Below the pieces are notes generated by a model. The model searched no databases. It saw only the letters and a list, made by a program, of their open reading frames with translations, and was not told the DNA's origin. The translations under genes were made by a program, and so were the position numbers. A DNA stretch of 64,000 bases from Moniliella sp. 'wahieum' (Eukaryota). Location of the stretch: positions 62,001 to 126,000 of the forward strand of contig RSEE01000100.1 in the NCBI GenBank assembly GCA_003971905.1. The letters are read 5' to 3'. Shown here piece by piece: positions 4,846-36,290 of this stretch. Position 1 is the stretch's first letter; the number at the start of each line of letters is the position of its first letter.

Positions 4846-7800
4846 TCATATGCGTTCACACCTGGCTGTTGCGGCGGACGGTTCGCCTCGCGGCGCTTCG
4901 TCGCCCGAGTCGGCGGTGAGGGGCGAGGGGGCCTCCAAACCATAGGTCACCGCATCCCGCCGACGCTTGAAGAGAGATTGCTGCGCCACAAGCAGCTCTT
5001 TGGTTTTCGGCATCAACCGCTTTGCGCGTCGCGCTGCTCCGTTTGGGATTGTAATTGTTGTTGCCGCCTTCGGCGGGAGTGAGCGTGCCAGGGCTGACGG
5101 AGGTGCTGGGCGGGAGGGGCAGGTGGTGGGGCAAGGAGGTAGTGGCAGGTGGTGAGGCAGAAACCGTGCGTGGTTCCCCGGGCCCATTGAGACGCGGGGA
5201 GGCGGCCAAGGGGGTGTTGCGTTTGGGCGTGAATACGAGGCCTCCATCCTCAGCGTCCGACGAGGAGGCGGGCTGGTGGGACGAGACGGTGACGGAAACA
5301 GGAGGACGCGGGGAGTTGTGGCGGTCGGGGGAAGGGTGGGAAAGGGGCGAGGCAAGGAGCGATGGCGATGTAGGCGAGGCGACAAGGAAGCCAAATTTTT
5401 CGGACGGGGCATGCTGAAATGGGCCTGTGCTTCGGCCGTCGCTTGTTCCCGCTCGGTTTGACGTTCCTCGTACAGGTCAAAGGTATCGCCCATCCAAAAG
5501 CCGAGATAGCGGATCACTTTGATCGCTTCGGGCATGATGCTGCTCATTTGCATAAAGCCATGGGACCAACCTTCGAGGATGCGAAGATGGACAAACTCGT
5601 CCTCAGGCTCGTCCCACTCCTCTTCTTCCTCCTCTCCTCCCGCTCCAGCCATGGGGAAGGTCATCCGCAGCGTCTCATCCAGCCGGGCGCGCGCTTGCTC
5701 CTGCTGCGCCCGCTTGCGCTCCAATCCGGCCCGCCGCGCCATTTTGGCCTCCCAAATGCGGCCCGCGAGCACAACCGAGTCGTCGCACAACGGATCTTTT
5801 TCTCCGCACACGATGAGGGTAGGAGGGAACTGGGCCAAGACAGAGGCGGGGGCCTTGATAGGGGAAAGGTAGTAATTGGTCGCTAGATTCGGCTGGCGAT
5901 GCGGACCAATGTACAAAATGGCCATGGAACGCATCATGCCCGGGGTCAGGATCCTGTCTTGGAAGTAAGCCGTTGTCGAGCTCATTGTCAGTCGTGTCTC
6001 GACCGGGCCAGCCTTGTGGCTCTGTTGTTGCTTTTCCAAGCGTGCATCCTCGTCGGCCTTGGCCAAAGCTAGTGCCGTCTGCAACTGCTCATCCTTTTTC
6101 TGCCGTGCTGCCAACGAAGCGGAGCGAGAGCGAGAGCGTGTGGACCGCTGCCACTCTTGCGCGTCATTCAGAAGAGAATTCATGCCTACCAAGAGCCCCG
6201 GAAGCCCAGAGACGGTAGGATCATCAAACAAGGGCTGTTGCACTCGGGGTTGCTCGTCGGCCGTGGTGTCTTCCGATGCCACACCCTGTCCTTCCTTCCC
6301 ATCCTCCCAATCATCCGTATCTTCTGCACGGGAAAACTCTGCCCGCTCAGCAAGATGCTTGCGTGCCTCACTTGCCAGGGAAGAGAAGTGGCTTGCCGAT
6401 TTGGCGCGCGACATTTGAGGCCGTTGGGGCTTGGTAGCACGCGAGGGAGACACAGTAGAAGGGTTACCAGAGTTTGCGTCCTGGGCTGACAAGCCAGAAG
6501 CAGCCGTAGCCTGAGTAGCTAGATTGGGGAAACTGCCCGAGGCGCGGCGGATGTGCCGCAGCTCGGCGGCTGAGTATTTACGGGACAGACGGGAGAGAGA
6601 CCGAGACCGAGGGCTAGACGGACGCTCGGACGATGATTCTCCACTGCAGTTACCGTTTCAGCGGGAGTCCCCATCTCGTGCAAGCTGCGTTCACTCTGTT
6701 TGCGCAGCACTCGCAGTGTCTCGGGGTCGAGCCAGACACTGTAGTTGACATTGACCGAAGGGTAAGCGAGTAGGAGCCCAATGGGCTTGGGAAGTGGGGG
6801 GGGGTCTCGCCATTCGGCACGCCGAGCTCTTTACACTGCTCTTCTTCAAGCGGCGTGCGATCCACATGGTAGGCAGCACGAACGTGATGGTCCGGGTACT
6901 CGATGGTACGAATGGCACAGCTTGCGGCCATGTGCCCTCCAGCCGAATCCCCAGTGATAATCACTTGGAAATCATCGCTGCCGCTCATGCCAATTACGCG
7001 ACCCTTGGTGAGGTGGAGGATGCGATAAGCATCAAAGCACTCCTCTTGTGCGTATGGGAAGACAAACTCGGGAGCCTTGGCATAGTTGAGCGACAGCACC
7101 ACTTTGCCCGTTTCCTTGGCCAGTTGCCGAAGACGCTCTTCATGGTGCTCGGGGGACTGCGGAGAGGAGTCAACACAGAGGAAGAGGAGGGATGGGCAAG
7201 GGGGATGAAGAATGGGCGAGAAGACGTACCATGGAGATCCATCCACCCCCAGGAAAGTCGAGGATAAGCTGGTATTGGTCGCGCAGCTGGGTATAGGAGC
7301 CGTTGAAGAAAAGCATGGCTTGGATGGGGCGGCGTGCATAGGCGCCGATGGGCGGGCGGGGCAAGAGGAGCTTCTTGACCAGCTTGGGGCGGTACCAGGT
7401 GAGGGAGGTGGCAAAGCGGATGTAGGGGTTGGTGGTCTTGTGCCACTGGGTGCGGAGCATATCAATGGTGGAGTAGGCGCGGTACTTGCGCAGGCGCTCG
7501 TCGGCGGCACGGTCAAAGACGAGGAAGTAGAAGGTAACAGGACGCTGCAGAGGTCGCGCAGCCACTTGGGCGGATGGCATGCTGGTGGTGAAGGCCGTGT
7601 CGAGGGCGCAGTTGATCCAGGTGGCGCGGTAGAAGTTGCGGTTGTACATGCGTGCCAGGGCTCGGGGGGGGCGAGGCCGAGGACCGAGTCGAAGTTCTTG
7701 AGCCCATACAGCGACACGAGCACGCCGACGACGAGCTGCCAGGGCGAGGCGTGGCGCAGACGGCGGCCGGCCCAGCGCAGGGGCGCGACGCGGGGGCCAT

Positions 7801-7902
7801 GGCGGGGGCCCCAGGCGAGGAGAGCAGACCAGAAGAGGAGAGGACGATGGTCTGGTAGCGCTTGATGCGCCGCGACGGACGCCCGAGCAGATTGTCGATC
7901 AT
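4846..7902 (-). CDS. Hormone-sensitive-lipase-like alpha/beta hydrolase; frameshifted
   Basis: N-terminus MIDNLLGRPS; oxyanion region DFPGGGW; LNYAKAPEFVFPYA; nucleophile elbow GDSAGG; CGEKDPLCDDS; WSHGFMQM; probable intron ~7156-7228. Confidence 0.85.
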
Positions 7903-8811
7903 GGCGTGGGGGCACGCAGCACTGGCGGCGTTGGCGGCGTTGGCGAGCTGGTCGGGGACAACCGAGGACAAACGAGGGAATATGGCCGCCTCCGCTTTCA
8001 CAGCGCGGCGGGCATTCCTGCCCCTCCGCCCGGGCCGGTGTGCCGATGGACGCGCGGCACCACACCGCACCCATGCCGCGCCCCCGAAAGCCGGGTACGC
8101 GGGTACCCGTGACGTCACCCGTGGCTGGCGGCCCCCGCACGGTCATGTGACCGGGCGCGTGCGTTCTGCCCCGGCCTCTCACCTCCACCATATCTTCAGC
8201 TGCATGCGCTTTGTGTTGCTTTGCCAGGGAAGTACTTGTCAGAGGCTGCTGCCTGGTCAAGCTCCACAGCCCGCCTGTTGCGCACGCTACCTCCCAGCCG
8301 AACGAATCCCTGCTGTCGGACCAAAGAAAAAAGTGCCGGCGTGCTAGGAGTGATAGTGGCGCGTGATCATGTGATAGGCGATGCGCATGTAGCACAGGTA
8401 GCACTGCAAGCAGCAAATTGAATGTCTTCCACATCTCGATCGCTCCACGCACGGAGCAGGTAATAGGTCTACTGGTCCACGTCGATAATCGAGCTATCAG
8501 AGCATCACTGAGTGTGCCCAGTAGGTCAGTGGCCCAGCTGCAAGATCCTCTCGCAAGCGCATTACCAGCTTCTGGTCACGGGACCCGTCACGTGGTGTGT
8601 GGCGTGTGGCGGCGTAGGACGCTATCGACCAGGCTTTTGGTTTTCATTGGCCTGAACCCTTTTATTGATGCACTTGATTGAAGTTACCAGCCGGCTACCG
8701 GCTGTCCTAGTAGGTTTGACCTGACCTCAAACTTCTGTGACACCCTATAAACACGCGGCCTCTCCCTCATGCCACATCACAACCACACTCTCCGCCATCC
8801 TTCCTTTTCCC

Positions 8812-15104: not shown

Positions 15105-17936
15105 ATGCGCGTCTCCTCGCCCTTCCTCCCCACATTCATTGTCGCCGCTGCCCTGCAGACGACTGTCCATGCTATCCCCGCCACTTCCGACAACACCCAC
15201 CGTCCCACCACTGCCGCCGCCGCCGAAGCAGCGTGCCATGCTCTCCCCGCAGCCCTGGGCCATTCGGTTACGGCTTCCGACGGCAGCACACTCCAACTCA
15301 ACGGATCCTTCTCCCAGTGGTACGCTGACGGGGCCAACCCTTCGCTTGAGCTCCTGGGCCTGAGCTACCCCCCTGGTTGGGTCCCCTCGACCAAGAAGAC
15401 GCTCAAGATCATTGATGGGCCTGCAGCCGTCGCACCCGACTTGGACTTGACCCAAGACTTTGGCTATGGCCGCCAAGGCACCAACGAACGAGCTCGATCG
15501 ATTGCCAACCACGGCCCTCTTGGTGGCCTCCCCGCATTTTGCCGGTACGTCTTTCGCCGTGGCACGCGGTGCTGTGGGTAGTATATGCCGGGCTCACAAG
15601 ATACTGACATGCTTTTCTCATTCCCTCCTTGTGTTCTCGCACCACCCGTAGACTCGGCGTTCGAATCGTGACCAGCGATAAGACACAGGTGATGACGGAA
15701 GTGTGGTTGCCGCAGGCGGACGATACTGCGTACGGGGGCAAGCCTGGTGCGGTCACAACTGGCCCACTTGCCCCGCTCAACCATTCCGATTACCCTCAAC
15801 CTTCTACGCCCGATTGTTGGATGTTGCCGATGCCACCTTTCCCATCCGGACTGGAAACGCGCATGGGGCAACCGCACGGTTACAACCAGTCCGACCCAGC
15901 TACGGTCTTTACCAACCTTCATGCCTCGCATTCCTCCTCTTCCTCCTCTGGTTCGTCATCCGGTGCTTCGCGCCGAAAACGAGAAGAGCCCCATCTTGAC
16001 CCGCGCAAGGCACCGCCTCCTGGGCACCACTCTCATCATGGCATTCTTTCGGGTGCCGAAGTCTATGGCAATGGCGATTCGATCTACTGGAACGGACGGA
16101 TGATGTTTTTGGGCAATGGCGGTCTTCGCGGCTGGATACCGTACCCGACCATGAAACAAACGTTGGCTCGGCATCGCTATGCCGTGGGCAGCAACATGGG
16201 TCATTCAGGTTCCACGGGCGACGCAACCTTTTCCAATGGCACCCAACACGTGGAAACGCTCAAGGACTTTAGCGGTCGTGCAACTCATGTTTCTACCCAA
16301 CTGAGTCACGTTGTCCTAGATACGTTTTATGGTCCAGAAGCTGGGGTCAGGGTAGCCCAGCACAATCACCCACCACCACGGTGGATCGGCCAAGCGAACC
16401 GAATCCGTCCCGGGTTCTCCAACCAAAGGCGGGACTTCGACAGAGAGCAAACAGGGACGGGTACGATCGTACTTTGCTGGTTGCTCCGACGGAGGCAAAG
16501 CTGGTTTTGCTAGTGCTTCTTTGTACCCGACCGACTTTGATGGCATTTACGCCGGCTCGCCAGGGTCAACTTTAATGGGCTGAATGCGGGGCAGATCCGT
16601 GCGCAGGCGTTGTTCCGTCAGGCTGTCATGCGGCCCAAGGGCGCCTATGTCGCCATGAAGAAACATTGGGCCTCGATTCATAATGTCGTCTTGGCCCAGT
16701 GCGATCATTTGGACGGTGTCGTGGATGGCGTCGTGTCCGATCCCAAGGCTTGCTTGCGCAAACTCGACTTTGCAAAGGACTTGCAGTGCCGTGTGTCGAG
16801 AAAGTCGTCGTCATCGAAGTCGTCTTCATCGACCAAGTCGTCGTCGTCCTCCAAGTCGTCGTCATCCTCCAAGGCGTCGGCATCGTCCAAGTCATCTAAA
16901 TCGTCCGGGCGTCTTCCCATTCCAACTCGCAGGCCGGCACGTCCACGCTGGCATCCATCAACGGTAGTAGCAGTCTATCGCATTCCCATCACCATGACGA
17001 TTCCGCAGCCACCCTCGTCTCGAAGCGAGAGCATCACTCGCCTCACTCAGCTCTTATGCTGCAGCCGCAAGCGCGTCTGGCACCAGACACCGCAAGGGGC
17101 TCCCTGTACGGCTATGATCGACAACAGTGCTTGAATGCGTCCCAGATTTCCACGCTGAACGCCATGTTTGAACCCACGGTTCTGACTGACAAGAACCATC
17201 AGAACCATACCGTCTTCCCAGGCTGGTATCCAGGGTACGAGACCATGCCCGGTACGCTCAAGGGTGCGGAGAAAGGCGATTGGGTGGTTGGAGCTGGCGC
17301 TTTTGGATGGCCCAACGAAGATTATGAAAAGTGGGATCCTTATACCCAATTGACCTATGACCAATTCGCCCTCTCTCTCCAACCCAACGTGACCTTCCTC
17401 AACACGAACAACCCGGACTTGACTGCCTTCTTTTCCGATCCGTCCCGTAAGTTGATCCACACCCACGGTACAACCGACATTACCATTGCCCCTGCCAACT
17501 CGGAGCAATTTTTTGAGCGCGTGACCAGCCATTCCACTCCTGCCAATGGCCACTCAGTCGATGAGAGTTACAAGCTATTTCTCGTTCCGGGTATGGGCCA
17601 TTGTCGAGGCGGCGATGGCGCGTTCCATTTCGGTAGTGTGACTCAAGAAGCCCCAGGCAACCGGCCGTACAAGTTTGACACGGAGCACGATGTACTTCTG
17701 CGTCGCGTCTGTCGCATGGGTGGAACAGGGCAGAAGTACGAACCGAACCACTTGGTCGCGGCATCTTATCCTACCATCGGTCAAGTCTATACCGATGCAG
17801 CTCCCTTTTGGACCTCCAACTATGCATGGGGGCTCCGCTTTACGCGCAAACTCTGTCCCTACCCACAAAAGCCCGTGTACAACGGTGGGGACCCACTTGG
17901 GGGCCTAACGCGCAGCACAGCTTTTCGTGCCAGTGA
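15105..17936 (+). CDS. Secreted tannase/feruloyl esterase family protein; frameshifted
   Basis: Signal-peptide-like N-terminus; WNGRMMFLGNGG; YFAGCSDGG; CDHLDGVVDGVVSDP; KLIHTHGTTD; FLVPGMGHCRGG; RKLCPYPQ; intron ~15545-15650. Confidence 0.88.
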
Positions 17937-20291
17937 TCCCTGGGCGATGGGTATGATACAGATTCCTGATCGGTCATTGTTGATGCATCTCAATCTGGCG
18001 CAGCATGATGCATGACCCACCTTTTCATTTCTTCCCTTGGGTCTTCCACCTACTTTTTCTTCTGATTACGGACACCCGCAATTCGTCTTCTTTCGCGGCC
18101 CCTGTTGTTGCCTTTGCGGTTTTCCTCGCAAGAAGGCGCTAGAACGCTGCAACCGGCACGATACCGTCCCCTGAATAGGTTTTTTCATTATATATGCCAA
18201 CAAACCGTTTAAGGTTTTCTATGCGTTGTTCCCAAATCCCCCCCACCCCCCCCCCCCCCCCCCGCCCCCAATCCTTCCTAACGAGGGTCCTAACGAGGGT
18301 GATCAGTAACCAACCCCATCCCGCCCCCCGCCCCCTCTCCGGCGTTTTATGAGAACCCGAACCCATTGCATATAACTTTCTTTTGCTCTCAGAGTCAGAC
18401 CCTGAAGCTCGAAATTTGACCCTTTTTTATTACCTGAGAGAGATGGCCGGCATGATCGATGGCCATCGACCAGGACCGTAACTGGTAAACCCCCTACCAC
18501 AGCCCATTTACATGCAGCTACGATAGCCTATTCTGCAGTGGTGTTGGTACAGATTGTGAACAAAAGACGGGGGAAGTATCAGCTGCAAAAGGAAACCTCT
18601 GCAGGTATAATAAGGCGTGAAGGTCACGTGGTGAGCCACCCACAGTTTTCTTCAGGGAACGTCGGAATACTATAGCGGGAGGAAACAGGAGATGATAGGG
18701 GAGGCATGCAGACAGGGCAGCTGAGGTGGAGTGACATCTGCATCATTGGAGCGAGCAGCGGGATGCGTGCTGATACTAATTTTCTGCGAGCGGAATCGGA
18801 AAACTCTTTCGCTCCCCCGGTCAACATGTGAGCTTAAGGGCCGTGCAGGGGGAAACAGGGGAACAGGGGAGAACAGGGGAGATCCCCAAGCACTGCTCTA
18901 CCTTCTCACATCTCTGTGGTACATCTGAGTCACTAGTCACTAGTCACTAGGCACTCTACAGATAGTGACTACCGCGAATAACAAAATAAACGAGAGTAGT
19001 TAATAACCTATAGTGACTAGGGACTAGAGTCACTACTGATAGCCCCCACACGGCCATCTGCCCGGCGCTGGCCTTGCGTATCTCGAACCCAACTTGGTTT
19101 GTAGTAGATCGAAGATCCTGCACCCCCCGAACATCCCATGCTATAGCAATCGCGGATGAAGCACAACCTAACTACTAACGCCAATAGGGCCCAAGTCCTA
19201 TTGCAACCAAAACCCCGCGTTTTGGGTGGATCGATCATCGATTCGGTGTGAGATCTGAGATGTGAAAAGGGTGCATGGTTCAAACCTAGATCTTGTCGGG
19301 AGGAACTAATAGCGCGCAACGCGTAACGCCGCATGTTGGACAAAGGAGATGGGTTTCGCACTTCATTCATTTTTGGATGCCAGTGGGGGGTGGAATCTGC
19401 TCCAGAGTCGAACGTTGATTGCTGTAGTGGGATGGAATATGGAGGGGGCTACCCGCAGGCCACAGGACACAGACAGCGTGTTGGAGCGGAGGGAGAAGGT
19501 GTGCAGGCAGGGCGCCTGTGGAGCGCGCGGCAATCACAGCGGCTTTTGGAGGCCATACCCCCCGCCCCTTGCATTGGTGGATGTGAGGGGAAGACACACT
19601 CTCTGCAGTGGTAGGGGGGTGGGGCATATGGAGGCAGTTCTGCGGAAGGTGCCACCCCACACCGCCTATAGGCAAAGCGCGTCGGCGTCTGTTTATAGCA
19701 CGCACAGAGCATAACACTGAGGACGAGGCAGTCCTTGGCGTTTTTACTGCTCTAGAGCCTCGTGCAAAGCCTCTCATCGGCTGCTGCTGGGCCACCGTCG
19801 GCAATAGCACATTCCGTTGTGTATTACATGCACGGGGCACGTTATATACAGCGTGCGCCTGTCCATAGCCCATGCTCGCCTGCTCGCAACTCCGACCCAA
19901 GCACAGCCTGAGTGCTAGTGCCCATGGCCGACGCTTGCTGCTTACAGCCAACCAACCAATCGACGCTGGGTGTGCGGCCCAGTGCCACCCCAATCCCAAT
20001 CCCCATCCCAACCAGTCCCAGCCCCGGCTGCTGCTGCGGCCCGAAGGCGGAGAAGCAGCAGCGCGGATTAGCACTGCAGAGGCCGCAGCATTCACTCACC
20101 CCCCAGCAGCCACCTGCAGCAGCCCCCCCCCCCCCCCCCCCCCCCCCGCCCCAGGCTTATATTAACCCCTGCCCTTATACGCCCCACCCCCGTTGCGTCC
20201 GCACGCACCTACCCCCGCCCCGCCCCTCTCGCTTCTTGCTCCCCCCCCTCCTTCACTTGCACTCCCGCTTCCCCTGTCCTCCCACGGTAGA

Positions 20292-21487: not shown

Positions 21488-22720
21488 TGCTCGGTACGGA
21501 GTGCTGAGTCGGCGTGGTTGTAAGAGGTGTGTCTGCACTAAGCATCTCTCCCACCACCGCACCATACTACATCTACACCGCACCATACCATTCCACCTGA
21601 TACACTCCCACTTTTGTCCTCTCTTTTAACTCTACACAACCCGCATGTGCTTTCCCTTCCCCTTTTTTTTCTTCGCACGGACACGGCGGCGTGTCCATGT
21701 GTGGGCCCTTCTGATCCTCCTCTCGCACCACTCGTTTTTTTTGGCTCATTACCCTCCGTCTCTCCTATCCGCCGCTGATATGCTCCCCCACAACGATTGA
21801 AACCACATACCTGAAAAGGGCTTGAATAGGCGCTCAGCTTCTTTACTTGAATTGATGGCTCCCCCTGCTCGTCTTGACACATAGATGCCTGGATGGTATT
21901 GGTGCCGGTAAAATGTAAATGATTGAGGACGAAGGAGCCATGCTCCGCTCGGCGCTAACAGGGGTGGTCTCTTTTTGTACGTTCGTTCGGGTTTCACATC
22001 GTCCACTGGTGGTCTTTTCATTGGTGGTCATCGATATCATCTATCCTCAGCCGTTTGACATGCCCCACCTGCGCCGGGTTGCTTTGTTGTTGGGTTGGAA
22101 ATGCACCCGGTCAGTTTGACTTGTTGTGGTGAGTTGTTCACAGGTTGGTGCCAAGAAGCGGCTCGGGAATTACTAGTTACTAGTTACTGTAGAAACTTGA
22201 TACGCTAAATAGGCCAATGTGGGGGCACAGAGTGGAATCCCCGAAAAGCTCATGATTGAGCGCGATATAACCTACCCCGATCAACATTTAACACGTGCGG
22301 TTCCACCACGTTCACCACGTTCACCATACTCTCTGTAGATATGAGAATCGCAGGTCTCGCCTACGCAGTTCTAGACTCCATACGTCTTTCCCAGCCCCTC
22401 GTTGGGACATCTGTCCTCCCTCCAACAGTCCATCTCGTAGAATCCCAGCAGGCGCAATTTTTACCATCATCCAAAGGGGCAACTCAGTAAGTACTCACAC
22501 GAACTCAGTTTGGAAGTGCTCCCACTTTGAAGCTTGATACAGGTACGTTTGAGCTCGTGTTTTCTTGCACTCTGTTGTTAGAGGGTACTGCTAGGGTTCT
22601 CCTGCGCGGCCCTCAATGGATCGGTGACGCTCGCCTAGCCGAGCGGAAGCGTTCCGCTCGCAGGCCGCGCACGCCCTGCTCGCTCCATCTCCCTTCTCTC
22701 TCTCCTTTCTCCTTCCCTTC

Positions 22721-22874
22721 AGACGTTGCTTGAAGACTTGTGGCTCACCACTTTGCCTTCACGCCTTGTCTGAAGGTACGCCTCTGCTTCCTTTCTTGAC
22801 CTGTTGCTCCTCACAATGAGACGTTGCTTGAAGACTTGTGGCTCACCACTTTGCCTTCACGCCTTGTCTGAAGG
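22721..22874. repeat. 56-bp perfect direct repeat (22721-22776 and 22819-22874)
   Basis: AGACGTTGCTTGAAGACTTG...GCCTTGTCTGAAGG occurs twice with a 42-bp spacer. Confidence 0.9.
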
Positions 22875-22984
22875 CTGCTTTGCAGCTGATCCATAGGATC
22901 GCGAGTGCTCCCTGTCACAGGCCTAGCTAGCGATGCTGGCGATGGTCGATGGAGATGGCATTCAAGAGCTAAGGAGAGCTAGAG

Positions 22985-25900
22985 CTATGGGCCTTGATAG
23001 GCTCCTGGCCTGGAGGCCAGTGGAAACCCGTGGAAGGGTCGGAACTCACTGCCCCGGTGCACTGTGTGGATCGGGCCACGTGTCACTGAAGGCCGATGGG
23101 CTCTAGACCACTGGTGGTCAACACCCCCCTGGCCAGAGGTCTCAGTGGCACGATGGAAGGTTGTAACGTCCTCAAGCTTGAGGCGAGGCAAGTTGGCCAG
23201 GAGTGAGACCTTAGTGGCTGGTTTGGTGAGGATGTCGGCCGGGTTCTCGTTTCCAGCAATGTGCGCGATTTTGACTTCGCCCGAGTCGACATGCTGGCGT
23301 ACGTTGTGGTACCGGATGTTCAGCTCACGTAGTTTGCCCGTGCTGCCCACTTTTTCGGCCAAGGCAAGTGCCGCCATGTTGTCGCAGTACCAGTGTATGG
23401 GCTCGTCTGAGGTGATGGCACCGAGCTCCAGTAAGATGTTTTTAACGTAGTTCGCATCAATGAGGCCCTCATATCCCGCCGTATATTCGGCCGCAGCAGT
23501 GTTGGTGACGCTCTTGGGTTGACGCACGCTCCTCCAGGACACTGGAACCCCGTAGACGAAAAGCAGGCATCCCGACGTGGAACGCCATTGGTCAGGGTCT
23601 CCAGCCAGGTCGGCATCCGTGTATAGCGCGAGAGCGGGTGCGTTAGGCTCGGGTGTTAGTCGGAGACCGTAGCCCTTGGTACCGTAGAGGTAGCGGAGGA
23701 AGTTTGTTGCCGCAGCGCGGTGGGCCTTGGAGGGATCGGCAGTTGCTCGGCTTAGAGCTGAGATGCCGAACAGCGCATCAGGGCGGCACATGCGGGCAGC
23801 CCACAGCCCAGATCCTACTTTGGCTTGATAGTCGCGTCTCTCGGCGGGCAGTGCGGGCGGTTCGGGGTCGGTGCGCGCGGGGATCATCTTGCTGGGGTGG
23901 GGGAGGCCCATAACCAGGGGTGGCGGAACCTCATGTTTGGCAATGGATTCCTCAATGAATTTTGGCTGGCTAAGGTACAGTTTCCCGTTTATGGTGTCGT
24001 ACTGGCAGCCAAGATGGTAGTGTAGGGGGCCGTTTCCCCGCACCTCGATATGGGTGTTGATCTCAGTGAGGAAGGAATCGTAGCGTGCGTGAGACGTGCA
24101 GGCGATGAGAAGATCGTCGGTGTGCACGGCAAGGAGGACCGTGTCGCCTTTACGGGGTCGGATGAACAAGCACGGCTCAGCCAGAGATTGTACAAAACCC
24201 ATGTCTCCGCGGAGCAAGTCACGGATGAATACCGCCCAGTTTGCGCCGGATTGGTGGAGGCCATATAGGCTTTTCCGGAGACGCCAGACCTTGCCTTTTT
24301 CCTCGGGAAAGAATGGGGGTGGGCGGAGGTACACTTTTTCCGTGAGGGGAGCGTTCAAATAGGCAGAGTGCACATCAGCAGTGAAGAGGTGGAGGCCGAA
24401 CTTTCCAGCAAGGGCGATAAGGCTGAGGATGGCAGGAGTGCGCACGGCAGGGGCGAATGTTTGTCCCCATGTGTCAGCATCCTGCTGGTGGCCCCCGGCA
24501 ACGAGACGGGCTCGGTAGCGTAGGAAATTTCCGTCCGCGTCCGTTTTGGTGTTGATGCGCCACAGACCAATCAGCAGCTGCGCGTCTGGAGGGGGCGTGA
24601 CGACTTCGAATGTGCCGTAGCGGGCTAGGGTGTCGATTTCCGTGCGCATCGCCTCCAGCACTGGTTCGAATGAGGGGTGTGATTGGAGGCCCTTCATTGT
24701 CTTGGGTGCAACAGGTACTCCGTCCTTGGTGAGCTGGATGCGCTCGTGCGGCCCTGGCTCGCTAAGGGCGATCATCGCCTTGTATTCAGGCGGATGGAGA
24801 CCGTCGCTGTACGCGGGCAGGGCAGTGTCGGGCAGTGGGAAGCGTAGGCCGATCGCAGGACTACGACTACCGTCAGGGAGGGGAACCGGAGGCAGCGCGG
24901 CAGCGTGTGCGTGGAAGTCACCATCATGAGGGTCGTCCGCTACGGGGAGCTGTGCCCAGTCAAGGTCAAAACGGCGCTGGTGGGTCCGGGCGGGGTACCG
25001 TCTGGTGGTGGGGGTGGTTGGATGGGTGTCGTTTTGTCTTGCGATGGTCGCGTCAGTATCAGTGTTGATTCTCGGTGGTGTGTTGGGATTTGCAACTTCA
25101 ATTTTGTTCATTTTTTCTTCTCCCTTTTTGGTTTCAGTGTCAGTCATAGTTCTGTCAGGCAGGGGTTGAGCGGGGAAGCGAGATACGTCAGGCGGAAAGC
25201 GGTCGGGGAAAACCTCGTGGTATTGGCGCTGGGTCCACTTGTATGGTTTTGCCCATTGGGATCGGAACGTGCCCATGGACGGGTCGTACACAGCCCAGCG
25301 CCAACCCTTTGTACCTCGACCTGCGTCGTACCCGACGAGCATGGCTTCGACAGCCCGCGGACTGAGCTTATGGTCACGTTGGTCCTGGGCCAGGTGAAGG
25401 TACGCCAAGGATCCGAAGGCGTGCATTGGCAGCGGTGGGGGTGACCCCTTGTACAGCTCAGCCCGAGATTGTGTGCCCTGGCGTGGAGATGTCGGTGGCA
25501 TGAGGTTGTGCGTCCAGCACCCTGCCAGCAAGGCATCCTGCCACCAGTTTGATGTCGGGAGGCCCGAGGCGATGATGAGTTGGCGCGCGCGTGTGGTGAT
25601 TGCCTGGATGGCTCGCTCGGCCACCCCATTTGATTGACTTTGGCCTGGTATGGTGGTTTCCGTCGTGATACCTTCGGATTCAAGGAACGGACGGAGTGCG
25701 CTGGTGAGCTCGGGGGCATTGTCTGTCTTCAAGATGCGAAGCAGACGGTCCTTTCCGATGCGTTGCTCGCGGGTGATGAGTTTTTTCAGCTCCGCCGTGG
25801 CTTGTCCTTTCGTCTTTAGGGGAACAGCGAAGGTGTAACGGCTCCAGTCATCAACCGCGACCAGGGCGTATCCATGTCCCATGCCAGTGATGCGAGGGAG

Positions 25901-26593
25901 GTCGACTACGTCGGCGTGCAGTACTTCGAAAGGACGTTCCGAAATGCGGCGGCCGTGGCGCGAAGGGTGGCTGGGCGCTTTGGCCAGAGCTTTTGTGCAG
26001 GTGGGACAATGCCAGAAGGGGCGGATGCGTCGGATTTGGGCAGGGCTGACGCGGAGGCTCGCTCGCGCGTTGGCGGTTAGTGTCGGGAGTAGGTCTAGCG
26101 CGGCGTGGTTGTACTGTTGGTGAACGTACATGACGTGCTCGATGGTGTTGGCTGCGGTGTGTTGGGTGGCGACGGCAGCTTTGGCCGCGTGTTCGTTTGT
26201 GGGTGTCGGTTTCGGGACGATGTTCAGCTTGTATGAGGAATCCGCGATTTGGTGATATTTGCCATGCTTGTCATTTAACCAGATACCTTTTCGGTGGGGG
26301 GCGAACCAGGATGCGTGGCCTGCGTCACTTATTTGCGCTACGCTCGTGAGATTGCTTGCTATGCCGGGGACGTATAGACTGCCGGGTAGGTCTACATGGA
26401 TACATTTGCCGTCGGTACACTTGATACCGATGCTACATGTTCCGCGTCCACTGGCTTTAATATGTTTTCCATCAGCGATTTCGATTGAGCGGTTGCTGGG
26501 CTTGAGGGTTTTGAATACCCTGAGATCCTTCCAGATGCTAGGATCCGCGCCCGAGTCGTGACGAGACTGGATGTCCTGGTTGCCCGCGAGTTC
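22985..26593 (-). CDS. pol: Copia Pol (protease, integrase, reverse transcriptase, RNase H), in frame with gag after a UAG
   Basis: Open frame from 26593: protease HDSGA; LYVPGIASNL; HHCC (HQQYNH..CPTC); DDE (LHAD, KTDNAPE, NGVAER); RT ADVHSAYLN, KSLYGLHQSG, VHTDDLL; RNase H YTDAD, AEY, YCDN, NPADILTK. Confidence 0.95.
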   Translation of the reverse strand, partial: ELAGNQDIQSRHDSGADPSIWKDLRVFKTLKPSNRSIEIADGKHIKASGRGTCSIGIKCTDGKCIHVDLPGSLYVPGIASNLTSVAQISDAGHASWFAPHRKGIWLNDKHGKYHQIADSSYKLNIVPKPTPTNEHAAKAAVATQHTAANTIEHVMYVHQQYNHAALDLLPTLTANARASLRVSPAQIRRIRPFWHCPTCTKALAKAPSHPSRHGRRISERPFEVLHADVVDLPRITGMGHGYALVAVDDWSRYTFAVPLKTKGQATAELKKLITREQRIGKDRLLRILKTDNAPELTSALRPFLESEGITTETTIPGQSQSNGVAERAIQAITTRARQLIIASGLPTSNWWQDALLAGCWTHNLMPPTSPRQGTQSRAELYKGSPPPLPMHAFGSLAYLHLAQDQRDHKLSPRAVEAMLVGYDAGRGTKGWRWAVYDPSMGTFRSQWAKPYKWTQRQYHEVFPDRFPPDVSRFPAQPLPDRTMTDTETKKGEEKMNKIEVANPNTPPRINTDTDATIARQNDTHPTTPTTRRYPARTHQRRFDLDWAQLPVADDPHDGDFHAHAAALPPVPLPDGSRSPAIGLRFPLPDTALPAYSDGLHPPEYKAMIALSEPGPHERIQLTKDGVPVAPKTMKGLQSHPSFEPVLEAMRTEIDTLARYGTFEVVTPPPDAQLLIGLWRINTKTDADGNFLRYRARLVAGGHQQDADTWGQTFAPAVRTPAILSLIALAGKFGLHLFTADVHSAYLNAPLTEKVYLRPPPFFPEEKGKVWRLRKSLYGLHQSGANWAVFIRDLLRGDMGFVQSLAEPCLFIRPRKGDTVLLAVHTDDLLIACTSHARYDSFLTEINTHIEVRGNGPLHYHLGCQYDTINGKLYLSQPKFIEESIAKHEVPPPLVMGLPHPSKMIPARTDPEPPALPAERRDYQAKVGSGLWAARMCRPDALFGISALSRATADPSKAHRAAATNFLRYLYGTKGYGLRLTPEPNAPALALYTDADLAGDPDQWRSTSGCLLFVYGVPVSWRSVRQPKSVTNTAAAEYTAGYEGLIDANYVKNILLELGAITSDEPIHWYCDNMAALALAEKVGSTGKLRELNIRYHNVRQHVDSGEVKIAHIAGNENPADILTKPATKVSLLANLPRLKLEDVTTFHRATETSGQGGVDHQWSRAHRPSVTRGPIHTVHRGSEFRPFHGFPLASRPGAYQGP

Positions 26594-27826
26594 CTATTTG
26601 TCAGATAGGGCAAGGTCCACAGACAGGGTCTCCCCTTCGGAGACGTCGTCTTCGGTGGCAATGTGCGCTCGCGCGGAGCTGTTGCGGTGCCATTTGTTGT
26701 TCGAAGGAACCCCGGTGTGGCCGGACGGCTTTCTCGCAAGAGCACCCCCGCTACGGGGAGATGCACCGGCAGGAGGACCCCCGCTATGCTGCTGGGATCC
26801 CGCGCTGTCGTGTTTGCCAGCGCCCGAGTTGGCGGTCCGGGGGTGACGGCCCCGGTACGGAATTCTGTACTCTGGGTCCGCTGGGATTCTCTCCACGTCT
26901 TGCATTGTCTCCGCCAGAGTCATGTGCTCTAGGCGGCGACGGTCACCAGGGTCGCGGAGGGCCCCGACGAGGATACGGCGGAATTGCTCGTCCGACATCG
27001 GTGTGGTTGCGCTGATCCGGTTGCGGAGCGTCCCCATTTCAGATAGGAACTCGCTCCCGCTGCGCCGGTTTTGGTAGCAGTGGTGAAAGCGACTGGACAA
27101 TTCATGATACGTCTTGCAGTCGACCGTACCGTATTTGTTTCGCAGGGCACGGAGCAAGTCAGCTGACGTGTCAACGTTGTCCTGTGCAATAATGGCAGAT
27201 TGAACGTCGTTCGGGAGGTGGGACCACAGAAGGTTCTGGAGGCGTAGATCGAGGGACGAGTCGTAGTGTGGTGACGATGGACCGGAGCGAACGATGTCCT
27301 TCGCGGCGGGGTGGATGCGGTCCAGGATGTTGAGGATGGAGGGCTCCCAGAGCACATATTCGGTGGGGTCGCGGAAGGCGTCCTTGCGCGTCGCGTTGGT
27401 ACGCTCGATCTCTTTTGACGCGCGTTTCTCAGCGTGGCGAAGCTCGGCCATGTCCTCACTCGCGGATGCAAGGGCCTCACGGGTGTTTTGCGGCTTCGTG
27501 AATTCAACGGCCAATACATATTTCTCCAACGCGAGGGTGAGCGTGTAGATCCAATTTTCCTTTCCGCCCGGTGTTTTCTTGCTCTTCGGTCCATACGCCG
27601 CCGTGTGTGCATCCGTAGCGAACGAGCGGCATGTGGAGCGGAGATTGTCAGCGCTGGTGGGCTTGAACGCGCGGGTGCTTGCGAGGAGGTTGTCTCTGAC
27701 GTCGGTGAGGGCCTGTTGCCAGGTCGGGTCGGAGACAGGGGTGGTGGTCGGTTCGTCGATGTCCTGCGCCTCTTCGATGACAGAGACTTCGGGAGGAGGG
27801 GTGTTTTCTTCCAGTTCGGGGGGCAT
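26594..27826 (-). CDS. gag: Copia Gag (410 aa) ending in TAG
   Basis: Position downstream of the 5' LTR/PBS; copia-gag-like segment SADLLRALRNKYG..SEFLSEMGTLRNRI; no CCHC knuckle visible. Confidence 0.85.
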   Translation of the reverse strand: MPPELEENTPPPEVSVIEEAQDIDEPTTTPVSDPTWQQALTDVRDNLLASTRAFKPTSADNLRSTCRSFATDAHTAAYGPKSKKTPGGKENWIYTLTLALEKYVLAVEFTKPQNTREALASASEDMAELRHAEKRASKEIERTNATRKDAFRDPTEYVLWEPSILNILDRIHPAAKDIVRSGPSSPHYDSSLDLRLQNLLWSHLPNDVQSAIIAQDNVDTSADLLRALRNKYGTVDCKTYHELSSRFHHCYQNRRSGSEFLSEMGTLRNRISATTPMSDEQFRRILVGALRDPGDRRRLEHMTLAETMQDVERIPADPEYRIPYRGRHPRTANSGAGKHDSAGSQQHSGGPPAGASPRSGGALARKPSGHTGVPSNNKWHRNSSARAHIATEDDVSEGETLSVDLALSDK

Positions 27827-27960
27827 GGTGGCTGATTTTTCCTTTGTTTTTTTTTTGAATTGGTTGGTGTGTGGTGCCGATGGTGGCGTTGGGGTGGTGG
27901 TGGTGACGGTGGGCGCCGATGGTGGTGCTGAGTATTGATCCTTTGCGCCAGTGGGGTGCT

Positions 27961-27974
27961 TCAGATTGTAGCTC
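27961..27974 (-). promoter_or_regulatory. Putative primer-binding site complementary to a tRNA anticodon arm
   Basis: GAGCTACAATCTGA directly abuts the 5' LTR with no TGG; its complement reads TCAGA-TT-GTA-GC-TC, the layout of an anticodon stem-loop. Confidence 0.6.
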
Positions 27975-28586
27975 TGTCACAGGCCTAGCTAGCGATGCTG
28001 GCGATGGTCGATGGAGATGGCATTCAAGAGCTAAGGAGAGCTAGAGCTATGGGCCTTGATAGGCTCCTGGCCTGGAGGCCAGTGGAAACCCGTGGAAGGG
28101 TCGGAACTCACTGCCCCGGTGCACTGTGTGGATCGGGCCACGTGTCACTGAAGGCCGATGGGCTCTAGACCACTGGTGGTCAACACTCCCAAGTCGCACT
28201 CTAGCATCTGTACAGTAGGATCCATGGAGGGACGCCTGCATGTGACATGTGGTTCTCTGGCAGACCTCAGATCTCACTCCTGTATTAGTTTAGTCGTGCA
28301 GCTTGAGGCTCTCGGGATAATCGATAATCGATCATGCATCATGGATCGTCTTGCCTTTTGCGTCTTCTTACAAAAAGGCGCAGTCGAATGGGTCACTGCG
28401 TTTCCTTTCCCCCTTCAATTAATTGCTCTTTAGTCTGCCAGTTACCAGTGAGCTGCGCTCAAGCTTCAAATTGGATGTCAAGATTCAAGCTTCACGTTTT
28501 GCGCATGCTCTTCTGTGCGCTGTGGAAGAATACACAACGTGCGGGGAAGACCATTCTGATAGGAATGGTTAATGGACTGGGCTGGG

Positions 28587-31479: not shown

Positions 31480-32931
31480 ATGCCCTTGGCTTTCCTGTCC
31501 CCTGCTGCTCGTCTCGCTGCCCCGGGCCTGCTCGCCCGCGCGCCCCTCCTGCCCTTGGCCCACTCGCGTGGCTATGCCACGTCGCAGTCCAGTGGCCCGT
31601 TCAATATGACCAGTACGTTGTGCGCTTCCTTGTTCCTCCTTTGAGGACCGACTGACTGGGCCCACACTGCGCTGTTCTCTTGGGGTTTTTCTTCCGTCTG
31701 TCTGTGTATCTGTTTGTTGACCGTTGTGTGCTTTTCGCCTTTTCGCCTCAGAATTTTCCAAGTACAACTGGGAGGATCCGGTGGGGTTGGAAACCAACTT
31801 GACCGACGACGAAAAAGCGATTCGCGACACGGCCGCTGAGTTTGCTACGGACTACTTGGCGCCGCGGGTGAAGGAGATGGCACGGAACGAAACGTGGGAC
31901 CCGACCCTCTTGCCTGCCATGGGCAACGTTGGTCTCCTAGGCCCGACCATCCAAGGGTACGGCTGTGCCGGTGAACAATGTCGCGTACGGGTGATTGCGC
32001 GTGAAATCGAGAAAGTTGATTCGGGTTACCGCTCCATCTTGTCCGTTCAATCTTCTTTGGCGATGGGTGCGATTGCCCAGTTCGGTACCGACGCACAGAA
32101 GGAACGGCTTTTGCCCCGGATGGCACGCGGCGAGCTGGTAGGGTGTTTTGGTCTGACGGAGCCCAACCATGGATCGGACCCGAGCGGGATGGAGACCACA
32201 GCGGAAGATGTGGGGGACGGTGAGGTGGTGTTGAATGGGAGCAAGACGTGGATTTCCAACTCGCCGTATTCGGATGTGTTTGTGGTATGGGCCAAGGCCA
32301 AGTGGGATGGTAAGGTGCATGGGTTTGTGCTGGAACGCGGTACAAAGGGGTTGGAGGCGCCCAAGATTGCGCATAAAACCGCTTTGCGCGCTTCGGTCAC
32401 AGGATCCATCTTCCTGGATAATGTACGCGTCAAGATGGAGGCAAGTCACTTGGCTCGCGCCAAGCCGGGCTTGGGCGCGCCGTTCGAGTGCTTGAACAGT
32501 GCTCGGTACGGTATCAGTTGGGGCTCGATGGGCTCGCTCGAGGCGTGCATTGCCGAGGCTCGCGAATACGCTTTGGCTCGGCACCAGTTCCACAAACCCC
32601 TGGCGGGATTCCAATTGGTCCAGAAGAAATTGGTCGATGCGCATGCAGAGGTCCAGCTGGGGCTGCTGCTTTCGCTCCAGGTAGGCCGGGCCAAGACGCA
32701 GGCACGTACAACCCGCAAATGATCAGCTTGGCCAAACGCAACAATTGCGGTAAGGCCCTGCACCACGCTCGCATCCTGCTGGAAATCCTGGGCGGGAACG
32801 CGGCCTCGGACGAGTACCACCTCCCCCGCCACGCGGCTAACTTGTACGTCGTCAATACGTACGAGGGCACGTACGATGTCCATGGCTTGATCTTGGGCAA
32901 TGCCTTGACTGGCGTGCCTGCCTTTGCGTAG
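31480..32931 (+). CDS. GCDH: Mitochondrial glutaryl-CoA dehydrogenase (acyl-CoA dehydrogenase family)
   Basis: Presequence-like exon 1; intron 31613-31751; [61 protein letters not shown]. Confidence 0.92.
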
Positions 32932-33833
32932 GCCACCGCTGGGCTTGCCCGTGTCGCCGCATCCCCTTCCCGCGGTGGGAACGGGCGAGATGCATGAGGA
33001 TTCACAAGGCTTTTGTTTTGTCCCCAGGGACTAGGGGGGATGGGGGTCGGGGGCGAGGCAGGATACGTAGGACTAGGGCTGATGCGGTAGAGCGCGGGGG
33101 GGGGGGGGGGGCGATGCTGCTGCGCAATCAGCCTGATTCATCTTTCCCCTCGTGGGCAATTTACAGCCGTTGCAGTGCGAGGCAAGGCCCGCATTTAGCC
33201 TCGACTGGCTAAGCCCCCTGTTATTTACCCCGCACCTCTCTGTCGATCGACGATGGCTGAGGCAGCTGGCAGAGCGGAACCGACGCGGCGGAAGACGGGG
33301 CAGGCCGGGTTAGCATTCAATATTCAACGTTCAAATGTGCAATGCTGAGCAGGTGGGGACAGAGGCACGGGGGGCGTGTGGCGGTGGGGACAGGGCACGG
33401 GCATGCGTGTTTGCCTCCACGCGGCCAGATCCACATTGCTGCAGGTGCAGTGATCGATGATCGTCCAGGGCGATGCTCGCCCTGTGCCGCGTGCCCCAGG
33501 CAGCCACCGCGGCACAGCGCTGGGTGTGGTGGGTGGGGTGCTGGGCGGCGCACTGCTGCAGTGTCGCGCGCGCCCTCCACGCGTCGCTCGGCCTGGGCGG
33601 CGGCCGGCGGCTTGCCTAGCCGCTTGCCGCATGCGTGCTGGATATGGGTACTGGGCCATGATCTCGATGATCCACTCGGTGTGACATGGAGCACTGCCTG
33701 CCTCTTCCAGCACCCACTAGTACGTGCGACTCAGCGCAGCCGCCGCTCCCTCTTCCAGTCCCTCTCGCCCGCTCCCCCACCGCCTTCTTGCCTCCATCTC
33801 CACCGCCACCGCCACCCCACCGCCCACCCCACC

Positions 33834-36290
33834 ATGGCTCCCGCCAAGGGCAAGGGCAAGGGCAACGCGCCCGCCAGCCGCATGACCGCCAGCCAGCTCT
33901 ACACCCACATGGTCAGCACCAACCAGCTCGCCCAAGCGAGCATCGACGACCTCCACCGCCAAGAGGCCTTTGCAGCCTCCCAAGTCTCCCTTGCCGCCCA
34001 GTCCACCGACACCCTCGCGCTCAAGTCCACCAAGCGCCACGACGGCTCCTCCTACATTGCCCTCGGCCTCGACGGCGACAGCGAAGAAGAAACAGGCCTG
34101 CTCGACGGCGACGAGCAGCCCGAAACCGAGCGGGAAAAGGCCCAGCGCGTCGGCCGCACCCCAGGATGGTTCACCAACACCCATCGCGCCATCGACGAGT
34201 GGGTCAACACGTGCAGGGAAACGTTCCGACAGAGTCGCCGCGTGCGCATCGTGTCCTACCTGACCATTTTTGTCCTCGGCATGCTGCTTGTTGGCTCCTT
34301 CCTTTCGCCCGAGCGTCGTGCTTCCCTCTCCTCTATGGCCCCGTGGAAATCCGCCGATGAAGACCGACCCCTGACGCCCGAGGAGCAGGCCGCTGGTACC
34401 CACGCCTCTCCCGCGCTCGACCACCCTGACGACGCACAGGGGCTGGGCAATGGCCTGCTGGATCTCCGCCCGGGCGAGGCCGGCACATGGTACAAGTCCC
34501 ACCCTGGCCCCATGGCTACTGGCACGCTCCCCTTTTGGGCGTCGGCAGCGGCGCTGCCCACGGGTGCATCGCACACCCGTGGTCACCAGGTCTACCAAAC
34601 CGCTTTGGCCGGCGACCAGGCCGTGCAAACCTTGGCGCCATTTGACCACATGGGCCCGCTTACGCCTTACCGCTCTGCGCCTGGCTTTGGCATAGACAAT
34701 CTCCGCTACCGCGACGCATCGGGCTTGATGCCCAACGCTCAAGGACAAGGCTCCTGCACCATCGATCAAGTTCACATTCTTCATCGTCACGGCGCTCGCT
34801 ATCCTACCTCTGGCTCTCCCGTTCATGCGCTTCAGTCCCTCACCCGTGCCCGCGAGGCTGGCAAAGTCACCTTTTCGGGTCCTCTCGCGTTCCTCCAGTC
34901 TTGGTCTTACCAGTTGGGCAGCGAGTTGCTCACGCCCCCGGACGATTGGAACTGTACCACAGCGGTGTGCAGGCGCACATGCAGTACGCCCACCTGGTCG
35001 GCGACCAACACCAAGGTGTGGCCGTGTCGAGCCATGCGACATCGTCGACCCAGAAGAGAGATAAGTGGACTAAGCGCGCTGCACTCCGTGCCAGTCGCCG
35101 CCAATGGGGTTGGAGCACATCTACCGCCGACCACTCTTGGTCCGCGCTGGCTCTCAACGCCGCATTGTCGATTCCGCCCCTGTCCTGGCTCCAAGGGTTC
35201 TTTGGCCCGCAGCTCTGGAACGATTTTGCCGTCCCACCCGAAACGGACTTGGTCCCGCCCGATGGTGAGATGGTCTCCCACCCTCTTGGTAACCAGGTCG
35301 CACGCATCGATTTTCAAGTCCACCCAGAAGCTCCCGGATGGAACACTACCTTGGCAAGTAACTTTGCTTGTCCCGCCGCCGCCGGGGGGAACGCCACAAC
35401 GGCAGAACGCTTGACTGCCTTCCGTCAGACCTACCTCCACCAAGCGCTCGAACGCCTGCAGCCTCACATCCACATTGTTGGTGGTGGTGCTGCGGCGGCG
35501 CAGGGCCAGGACCAAGGACAAGAACAAGCAGATTGGGATGGTAAGTTGACCCCGGCATTGTTGAATGCGATGCAACAGCTGTGCTCGTACGAAACTGTCG
35601 CCCTGGGCCAATCTTCCTTTTGCTCCTTGTTCACCGCGGCCGAGTGGGAGGGGTACGAGCGGCTGTGGGACATGCAGTTCCACGGGTACGATGGGGCTGG
35701 TACGCCCTTGGGCGCGGCACAGGGCGTAGGGTGGACACAAGAGTTCCTCGCTCGCTTGACCAACCAGGCTTGGAACGCAACCGCCCAAACGAGTGAAAAC
35801 ACAACGGTCAACATGGACCCAACTAAGTTCCCCACCTCGGCGTCTCAACGCGTCTTTGTCGATTTCACCCACGACAGTATCCTCACCTCTGTCTTGGCTG
35901 CCTCGGCACCCAGGACCTCAATACCCTCCCGCCGTTCGATCCTGCCTCCCCGTCCTCGCTAGACGCACACGCTCGCTTCCGCACCAGCCATCTCGTGCCC
36001 TTTGCCGCGCGCATGGTCTTCGAACGCTTAACGTGTACTGAGGATGCCTCCCCGTCCGCCCACGGAGCGGGACAATACGTTCGCATGATCTTGAACGATG
36101 CTTTGGTCCCACTCGCTTCGGTCGGATGTACAGATCGTCCGGACGGCCTGTGCTCCGTACAGGAACTCCTGCGCGTACTTACCCCCGCTTGGAACGTACT
36201 ACCCACTCGTTTGCACAGGTGTGTGCGACGAATGCCACCACCACTACCTCTGCGCCTGCGTTGTAGGTTTCTCATCCCTCGATGCATCAC
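33834..36290 (+). CDS. Histidine acid phosphatase/phytase with N-terminal membrane anchor; frameshifted, 3' end approximate
   Basis: HRHGARYPT; LCSYETVALGQSSFCSLFT; DFTHDS; VPFAARMVFE; VRMILNDALVPL; TM segment IVSYLTIFVLGMLLVGSFL. Confidence 0.88.

What the first reader, a model, noticed from the sequence alone, without database searches (positions are those of the whole stretch)
27953..27980. Primer-binding site matches a tRNA anticodon arm (GTA), not a tRNA 3' end
Seen: the sequence abutting the 5' LTR is GAGCTACAATCTGA, without the TGG that pairs with CCA. Its complement TCAGA TT GTA GC TC has the layout of tRNA positions 27-40. Established: Drosophila copia and Ty5 prime with a cleaved 5' half of initiator tRNA-Met, and Tca2 with a tRNA-Arg fragment. 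Inference: this element primes from a 5' half of tRNA-Tyr(GUA). tRNA-His(GUG) via a G:U wobble is an alternative, since the TT-nnn-GC loop also fits His. Either would be an unusual primer.
Basis: partly seen in the sequence, partly recalled or inferred. Interest (0 to 1): 0.7.

Follow-up and report, generated by a model that had tools for sequence, protein, structure and literature searches.

The report
Copia retrotransposon with non-standard primer site
An intact, recently inserted Ty1/copia retrotransposon in a basidiomycete fungus has a primer-binding site that cannot pair with a tRNA 3' end and most likely pairs with an internal tRNA segment, a priming mode already known in fungal copia elements; which tRNA it uses could not be checked.

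Summary
A 5.27-kb Ty1/copia element lies on the minus strand. It has two identical 211-nt LTRs (27975-28185 and 22913-23123), a 5-bp target duplication (GGGAG), a polypurine tract, and gag and PR-IN-RT-RH joined by one in-frame TAG. Directly after the 5' LTR comes GAGCTACAATCTGA. There is no TGG until +25.

The complement, TCAGATTGTAGCTC, fits tRNA positions 27-40 (Y32, U33, anticodon GUA, R37, pairs 31:39 and 30:40). This is weak statistically. 0.72% of window 14-mers fit in that register, and 7.6% fit in any register 38-43.

No host genome is held, so no tRNA could be matched. The one tRNA in the window does not fit.

Internal-tRNA primer sites are already documented in fungal copia elements: Ty5 (iMet), Candida Tca2/gamma (Arg-UCU), FunCo1 (Lys), and the ICTV genus Hemivirus. 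So the mechanism is not new. Only the tRNA species (Tyr, or His by wobble) would be.

Self-priming has only 6 nt of support, and a GalEa-type hairpin site is absent. An empty-site allele and a 96.5% variant in public runs point to recent mobility, so the site probably works.

Verdict: probably a new member of a known kind; tRNA identity unproven; modest interest.

The parts
27975..28185 (-). 5' LTR, 211 nt, TGTTG...GTGACA
   Evidence: Direct repeat found. Boundaries. 211/211 identical to the 3' LTR.
22913..23123 (-). 3' LTR, 211 nt
28186..28190 (-). Target-site duplication GGGAG, upstream copy
22908..22912 (-). Target-site duplication GGGAG, downstream copy
27961..27974 (-). Candidate primer-binding site GAGCTACAATCTGA, directly abutting the 5' LTR. 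Its complement has the layout of tRNA positions 27-40.
23124..23130 (-). Polypurine tract AGGGGGG, directly upstream of the 3' LTR
26597..27826 (-). gag ORF (410 aa, no Pfam match), ending at an in-frame TAG at 26594-26596
22985..26593 (-). pol in the same frame as gag. The protease motif DSGA follows the TAG, then integrase (rve), an SH3-like domain, RVT_2 and the RNase H region. The stop codon lies inside the 3' LTR.
28028..28049 (-). Three copies of TAGCTC in the LTR (LTR positions 137, 143, 153), complementary to the first 6 nt of the candidate PBS. This is the only support for self-priming.

Best explanation
The 14 nt after the 5' LTR are the minus-strand primer-binding site of an active Ty1/copia (Pseudoviridae) element. 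The element primes reverse transcription in the hemivirus manner. An internal stretch of a host tRNA, the anticodon arm at positions 27-40, anneals to the site. The tRNA is cut in the 3' strand of the anticodon stem, and the new 3' end (position 40) is extended into U5. If the match is exact the tRNA has anticodon GUA (Tyr). tRNA-His(GUG) with one G:U pair is second choice. Shown here: the element's anatomy, the absence of a 3'-end-type site, the tRNA-like layout, and signs of recent mobility. Inferred: that a tRNA is the primer, which tRNA it is, and where it is cut.
For: 1. The site is where a PBS must be. LTR ends and the target duplication are exact, so priming must start at 27974.
2. There is no TGG within 24 nt.
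3. The complement fits Y32, U33, R37 and pairs 31:39 and 30:40. 0.72% of window 14-mers do so in this register.
4. [quoted passage not shown]
5. The element looks functional and recently mobile, so its PBS probably works. The LTRs are 211/211 identical. gag and pol are open. Run X2 holds a contig that joins the two flanks, ending at 22912 and running on with 13 letters equal to 28191-28203, which is an empty site. A 96.5% variant spans 23046-28137 in X1, and X3 holds an LTR copy with a different flank.
6. An anticodon loop TTGTAGC does exist in real tRNA-Tyr genes: fish mitochondrial tRNA-Tyr printed in PMC9724258. This shows the loop is feasible, nothing more.
Against: 1. No tRNA with this arm was found, because no host tRNA set could be reached. 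The only tRNA in the window (60842-60941) does not match.
2. The layout is weak evidence. 7.6% of positions fit in some register 38-43.
3. The Rfam tRNA model gives no hit with E up to 10 on 27900-27977, so nothing beyond the 14 nt looks like a tRNA 5' half.
4. The site implies G37. G37 is widely methylated to m1G37 (passages). By established knowledge (recalled), m1G cannot form a Watson-Crick pair and stops reverse transcriptases. That would weaken annealing and cut short the plus-strand copy of the primer. The known half-tRNA primers (iMet, Arg-UCU, Lys) are, as I recall, all A37 tRNAs. A partial answer exists for Tyr: the review's passages (shown there for tRNA-Phe) say Trm5 acts in the nucleus and only on spliced tRNA. 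By my inference, intron-bearing tRNAs therefore pass through a spliced, G37-unmodified state in the cytoplasm.
5. As I recall, eukaryotic cytosolic tRNA-Tyr usually has C32 and A38, not U32 and C38. U32/G37/C38 is more typical of His and Asp.
6. The 17-mer with a perfect stem was found in at least 120 prokaryotic contigs, and 0 of the 60 scanned held a tRNA. This arm is therefore not a common tRNA arm, though prokaryotes say little about a fungus.
Confidence: 0.55

Rival explanations
1. The primer is the extreme 5' end of a tRNA (positions 1-13: acceptor strand CAGATTG, U8, A9, D-stem strand GCTC). It would be cut at the end of the duplex, as Tf1 cuts its own RNA.
For: The same 13 nt read equally well as acceptor strand + TA + GCTC. 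An 11-mer of the site (GATTGTAGCTC) occurs in exactly that position in a tRNA-His whose northern probe is printed in PMC12907706. The first base would be C1. As I recall, C1 is the identity base of eukaryotic tRNA-Tyr. No base that blocks reverse transcriptase is expected in positions 1-13 (recalled).
Against: I know of no retroelement that primes this way. No host tRNA was available to test it. The tRNA features seen in this register (U8, G10) are few, so chance is not excluded.
Confidence: 0.1
2. Self-priming of the Tf1 type. The 5' end of the element's own transcript folds back onto the site, is cut by RNase H, and primes.
For: TAGCTC occurs three times in the LTR (positions 137, 143, 153 of 211) and is complementary to the first 6 nt of the site. 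A TATA-like CTATCAAGG lies just upstream of these motifs, read by eye. The minimum-energy fold of 28050-27915 pairs the first motif with the LTR/PBS junction.
Against: Only 6 nt are consistent with the LTR end. The 7th pair would use the last LTR base, and 7- and 8-mers do not match. Tf1 uses 11 nt (passage). 6.3% of random window 6-mers have a complement in this LTR. The fold is no better than shuffles (z = +0.86; 162 of 200 shuffles fold at least as well). As I recall, self-priming is described for Ty3/gypsy-type elements, not copia.
Confidence: 0.1
3. This is not a tRNA site. Priming would go through an element-encoded structure or another unknown primer, as proposed for fungal GalEa copia elements, which lack a PBS and carry a conserved hairpin site.
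For: Fungal GalEa elements show that copia elements without any tRNA-matching PBS exist. No tRNA match could be shown here. A small hairpin, CAGA-GCTACAA-TCTG, straddles the LTR end.
Against: The GalEa signature is absent. The 9-10 nt that include the last LTR base are not palindromic, and no reverse-complementary second box lies 12-41 nt downstream: none of the 10 inverted repeats in 27900-28200 links 27961-27974 to the leader. The hairpin has only 4 pairs, 2 of them from the universal LTR-terminal CA.
Confidence: 0.2

Closest known systems
Hemivirus-type Ty1/copia elements (Ty5 of Saccharomyces; copia of Drosophila)
   Same: Ty1/copia gene order. The PBS directly after the LTR lacks TGG and is complementary to a tRNA anticodon arm rather than a 3' end (Ty5; genus definition; copia itself recalled).
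   Different: Those elements use initiator tRNA-Met. This site cannot pair with a CAU anticodon arm and implies anticodon GUA (or GUG by wobble) and G37 instead of A37. RT phylogeny against these elements was not done.
Tca2 and related families of Candida albicans
   Same: Fungal copia elements whose PBS matches an internal region of a non-initiator tRNA, Arg-UCU. As I recall, Tca2 also separates gag and pol by one in-frame stop codon, as this element does (TAG at 26594-26596).
   Different: A different tRNA species and a different host phylum (ascomycete yeast versus a Ustilaginomycotina-like basidiomycete).
FunCo1 copia clade of filamentous ascomycetes
   Same: The PBS (ATTAAGAGTCT) is complementary to an internal region of tRNA-Lys. 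This shows that fungal copia elements use several tRNA species this way.
   Different: A different PBS sequence. Whether the two are related in RT was not tested.
Tf1/Tf2 self-priming elements of Schizosaccharomyces pombe
   Same: No tRNA 3'-end site. A short complement of the PBS is present in the LTR.
   Different: Tf1 has 11 nt of complementarity at the exact 5' end of the RNA. Here there are 6 nt and the transcript start is unknown. Tf1 is a Ty3/gypsy element (recalled).
Fungal GalEa copia elements with a conserved hairpin site
   Same: Fungal copia elements without a classical PBS.
   Different: Their palindromic box plus a second complementary box is not present here.

Membership tests
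Ty1/copia LTR retrotransposon (Pseudoviridae) | pol order PR-IN-RT-RNase H with a copia-type RT | tested here: met
   rve at residues 65-164, SH3-like domain at 236-286, RVT_2 at 506-734 of P0001. The DSGA protease motif lies upstream of integrase.
Ty1/copia LTR retrotransposon (Pseudoviridae) | Two LTRs ending TG...CA, a 5-bp target duplication, and a polypurine tract before the 3' LTR | tested here: met
Hemivirus-type priming (half-tRNA) | PBS not complementary to a tRNA 3' end (no TGG next to the LTR) | tested here: met
   the first TGG is at +25.
Hemivirus-type priming (half-tRNA) | PBS complementary to an internal segment of an identified host tRNA | not testable with these tools
   No host genome is held. 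The only tRNA in the window does not match. Only the tRNA-like layout could be scored.
Hemivirus-type priming (half-tRNA) | RT/IN phylogeny groups the element with copia, Ty5 and Tca2 | not tested
Of the 27 pol relatives found, the named ones are plant, algal and dinoflagellate entries at 23-32% identity.
Tf1-type self-priming elements | About 11 nt at the transcript's 5' end complementary to the PBS | tested here: not met
   Only the 6-mer TAGCTC matches anywhere in the LTR, and 7- and 8-mers do not. The transcript start is unknown.
Fungal GalEa conserved hairpin site | A 9-bp box that is palindromic with the last LTR base, plus a reverse-complementary second box 12-41 bp downstream | tested here: not met
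   The sequence after the LTR is not palindromic. No inverted repeat links it to the leader. Criteria taken.

The most novel reading that the evidence does not exclude
This would be the first retroelement known to prime from a 5' fragment of tRNA-Tyr(GUA). All eukaryotic tRNA-Tyr genes carry an intron (recalled). The element might therefore draw on the freshly spliced cytoplasmic pool of tRNA-Tyr, which is not yet methylated at G37. That would link retrotransposition to the tRNA splicing and retrograde-transport cycle.
Probability: 0.25. Interest if true: 0.5.

Novelty: new member of a known kind. Interest (0 to 1): 0.3.

Why it matters
If a host tRNA-Tyr (or His) with this anticodon arm exists, the list of tRNAs used as internal 'half' primers (iMet, Arg, Lys) gains a member with G37. 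That raises a question: how does an m1G37-type tRNA serve as primer and as template for the plus-strand copy? The element is also a young, apparently active copia family in a poorly sampled Ustilaginomycotina-like fungus, so it could be tested at the bench. Otherwise this is an ordinary retrotransposon.

Tried and rejected
- Host genome: none is held.
- Earlier scan notes: none by place, by words or by sequence.
- ARAGORN on the window: 0 tRNAs by default. Rfam finds one tRNA, at 60842-60941, unrelated to the site.
- Rfam at E up to 10 on 27900-27977: no tRNA hit, only three chance matches.
- Plasmid collection with the whole element: no match, and not a sensible target.
- Sequencing runs: 3 holders in 3 studies, with word shares 0.34, 0.26 and 0.12. 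No RNA holder is listed.
- Read laying: the X1 contig covers the PBS, but the table of differences shows only 40 of 193 rows and stops at 24380. Variation at the PBS could not be read, and the cap is one call.
- Relatives in metagenome contigs: 80 loci at 23-36% identity. None has this PBS within 2 mismatches next to an LTR: the 3 loose matches are elsewhere. Of the 26 loci with a detectable LTR pair, roughly ten carry a TGGTATCAGAGC-like 3'-end site, judged by eye, and none carries a site like this one. They are too distant to inform this element. ARAGORN run over all 80 loci (710 kb) found no tRNA; I viewed the printed result for L001-L075.
- Viral contigs and genome contigs with the pol alignment: no relatives.
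- Genome contigs with a hypothetical perfect-stem 17-mer: at least 120 hits, and 0 of the 60 scanned are tRNAs.
- Full-text search for the site and its parts: the 14-mers are not in print. The 11-12-mers hit PCR primers, one fish mitochondrial tRNA-Tyr and one tRNA-His probe.
- Supplements of PMC5445492: no occurrence of the site.
- Exact look-up of three window proteins: not in the collection.
- HMMER search with the 110-aa ORF that spans the PBS, in the hope of a relative's leader: one hit, a CRISPR-repeat translation, irrelevant.
- TGG at +25 as the PBS: rejected, because the LTR end fixes the priming point.
- A D-arm-like stretch (GCGC...GTGC) upstream of the arm: rejected as evidence, because positions 14 and 21 are non-canonical and the tRNA model does not score it.

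Full report
**Anatomy**

A direct repeat in 20000-42000 and reading of both ends define an LTR retrotransposon on the minus strand.
- The 5' LTR is 27975-28185 and the 3' LTR is 22913-23123. Each is 211 nt and runs TGTTGACC...CCTGTGACA.
- The two LTRs are identical. The one mismatch in the 216-nt blast is in the 5 nt outside the LTR.
- GGGAG flanks both ends (28186-28190 and 22908-22912).
- AGGGGGG (23124-23130) precedes the 3' LTR.
- gag (27826-26597, 410 aa, no Pfam hit) ends at a TAG. pol continues in the same frame.
- pol has a DSGA protease motif, then integrase, an SH3-like domain and RVT_2. That is the Ty1/copia order.
- There is no other copy and no solo LTR in the window.

**The observation**

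Directly after the last LTR base, the element strand reads GAGCTACAATCTGAAGCACCCCACTGG. There is no TGG until +25. Because the LTR ends and the target duplication fix where minus-strand synthesis begins, a site 25 nt away cannot be the PBS.

The complement, TCAGATTGTAGCTC (27961-27974), reads as tRNA positions 27-40: stem strand TCAGA, loop TTGTAGC (U33, anticodon GTA, G37), then TC pairing back to positions 31 and 30.

How much this means is limited. In one search, 0.72% of the window's 14-mers meet the same criteria in this register, and 7.6% of positions meet them in some register with the primer ending at 38-43. The two extra stem pairs use the LTR's terminal CA, which nearly all LTRs have. 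The Rfam tRNA model does not score 27900-27977 at all, so nothing beyond the arm looks like a tRNA half.

**Is the site likely to be functional?**

The element has identical LTRs and open gag and pol. Public runs add further signs.
- A 5089-nt contig in X1 covers 23046-28137 with 180 differences (about 96.5% identity), so a diverged copy of the same family exists.
- X3 has an LTR copy joined to a different flank.
- One X2 contig lies on 22822-22912 and then continues with 13 letters identical to 28191-28203. That is an empty site with a single GGGAG.

The family is therefore polymorphic in position and recently mobile, which argues that its primer site works. I could not see whether the PBS differs in the X1 copy, because the difference table was cut at 24380.

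**Which primer?**

No host genome is held. The only tRNA in the window (60842-60941) is unrelated to the site. Host proteins place the window in a basidiomycete. The best named hits to its glutaryl-CoA dehydrogenase are Ustilaginomycotina (Tilletia, Violaceomyces, Tilletiaria, Ceraceosorus and others, 69-71% identity). No tool here holds such genomes.

Searches for relatives with DNA context gave nothing usable.
- Metagenome contigs gave only distant copia elements (23-36% identity). Many of those with a detectable LTR pair have the ordinary TGGTATCAGAGC site.
- Viral contigs and genome contigs gave no relatives.
- A perfect-stem version of the arm occurs in at least 120 prokaryotic contigs, but 0 of the 60 scanned are tRNAs.
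- The site is not printed in any paper of the library.

Two hits from that paper search are instructive.
- Fish mitochondrial tRNA-Tyr genes have exactly the loop TTGTAGC, so such a Tyr loop can exist.
- A probe to the 5' end of a tRNA-His contains the complement of GATTGTAGCTC as acceptor strand + UA + D-stem strand. The same letters can therefore be read in a second tRNA register, positions 1-13.

**What is known**

Internal-tRNA primer sites are a defined, named feature of part of this family.
[quoted passage not shown] - C. albicans PBS classes include internal regions of tRNA-Arg(UCU) and of iMet (passages).
- FunCo1 elements of filamentous ascomycetes have a PBS complementary to an internal region of tRNA-Lys, while fungal GalEa elements have no PBS and carry a hairpin site instead (passages).
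- Tf1 primes itself with its first 11 bases (passage).
- The copia case itself, and Tca2's in-frame stop between gag and pol, are recalled, not read here.

**Weighing**

The position, the lack of TGG, the arm layout and the strong precedent in fungal copia elements make half-tRNA priming the best reading (about 0.55).

Within it, an exact match means anticodon GUA, which is Tyr. His needs a G:U pair. As I infer from the standard replication scheme, in which the plus strand copies the primer, such a mismatch tends to be erased.

Against the reading:
- The site implies G37. m1G37 is widespread (passages) and, by established knowledge, blocks pairing and reverse transcription.
- The known half-primers are, as I recall, A37 tRNAs.
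- As I recall, U32 and C38 are more typical of His and Asp than of Tyr.
- One mitigating point: Trm5 acts in the nucleus and only on spliced tRNA (shown for tRNA-Phe). By inference, intron-bearing tRNAs would have an unmethylated spliced form in the cytoplasm.

Rivals:
- **5'-end register (0.1).** It has no precedent.
- **Self-priming (0.1).** TAGCTC occurs three times in the LTR, but this is only 6 nt, 6.3% of random 6-mers do as well, and the fold is no better than shuffles.
- **A non-tRNA mechanism (0.2).** The GalEa signature is absent.

**Verdict**

The mechanism is already known; only the tRNA species would be new. Interest is modest. One tRNA scan of the host genome would settle the question.

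Noticed in passing
window 26594-26596 (minus strand): gag and pol are in the same frame, separated by a single TAG (...GAC AAA TAG GAA CTC...). pol would be made by stop-codon read-through, or the copy carries a nonsense change. As I recall, Tca2 of Candida has the same arrangement.
   Followed up: partly
window 22822-22912 and 28191-28203: A contig of run X2 joins the two flanks of the element with one copy of the target site. This is an empty-site allele in the coded organism A. After 13 matching letters the contig diverges from the window.
   Followed up: partly
window 60842-60941 (+): An intron-containing tRNA gene (Rfam 47.1 bits) that ARAGORN misses by default. With introns allowed, ARAGORN calls it Cys(ACA) with an odd intron position. 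By eye it is a long-variable-arm tRNA with loop TTAAGG, a 20-nt intron after position 37 and anticodon AAG (Leu).
   Followed up: partly
window 27843 region (minus-strand leader, A-run before the gag ATG): The related copies in X1 and X2 lack 4 and 5 letters of the homopolymer run, a length polymorphism in the 5' leader.
   Followed up: no
window about 22720-22875: Two copies of a roughly 55-nt direct repeat (CTTCAGACAAGGCGTGAAGGCAAAGTGG...), about 98 nt apart, lie in the host flank just beside the insertion site.
   Followed up: no
window 22985-23123: The pol reading frame runs about 139 nt into the 3' LTR before its stop.
   Followed up: no
window 4846-8452, 15629-18015, 31724-32722, 33342-35414: Host ORFs with Abhydrolase_3, tannase/feruloyl esterase, glutaryl-CoA dehydrogenase and histidine-phosphatase domains. 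The dehydrogenase is 69-71% identical to Ustilaginomycotina proteins and 86% identical to unnamed Logan proteins.
   Followed up: partly
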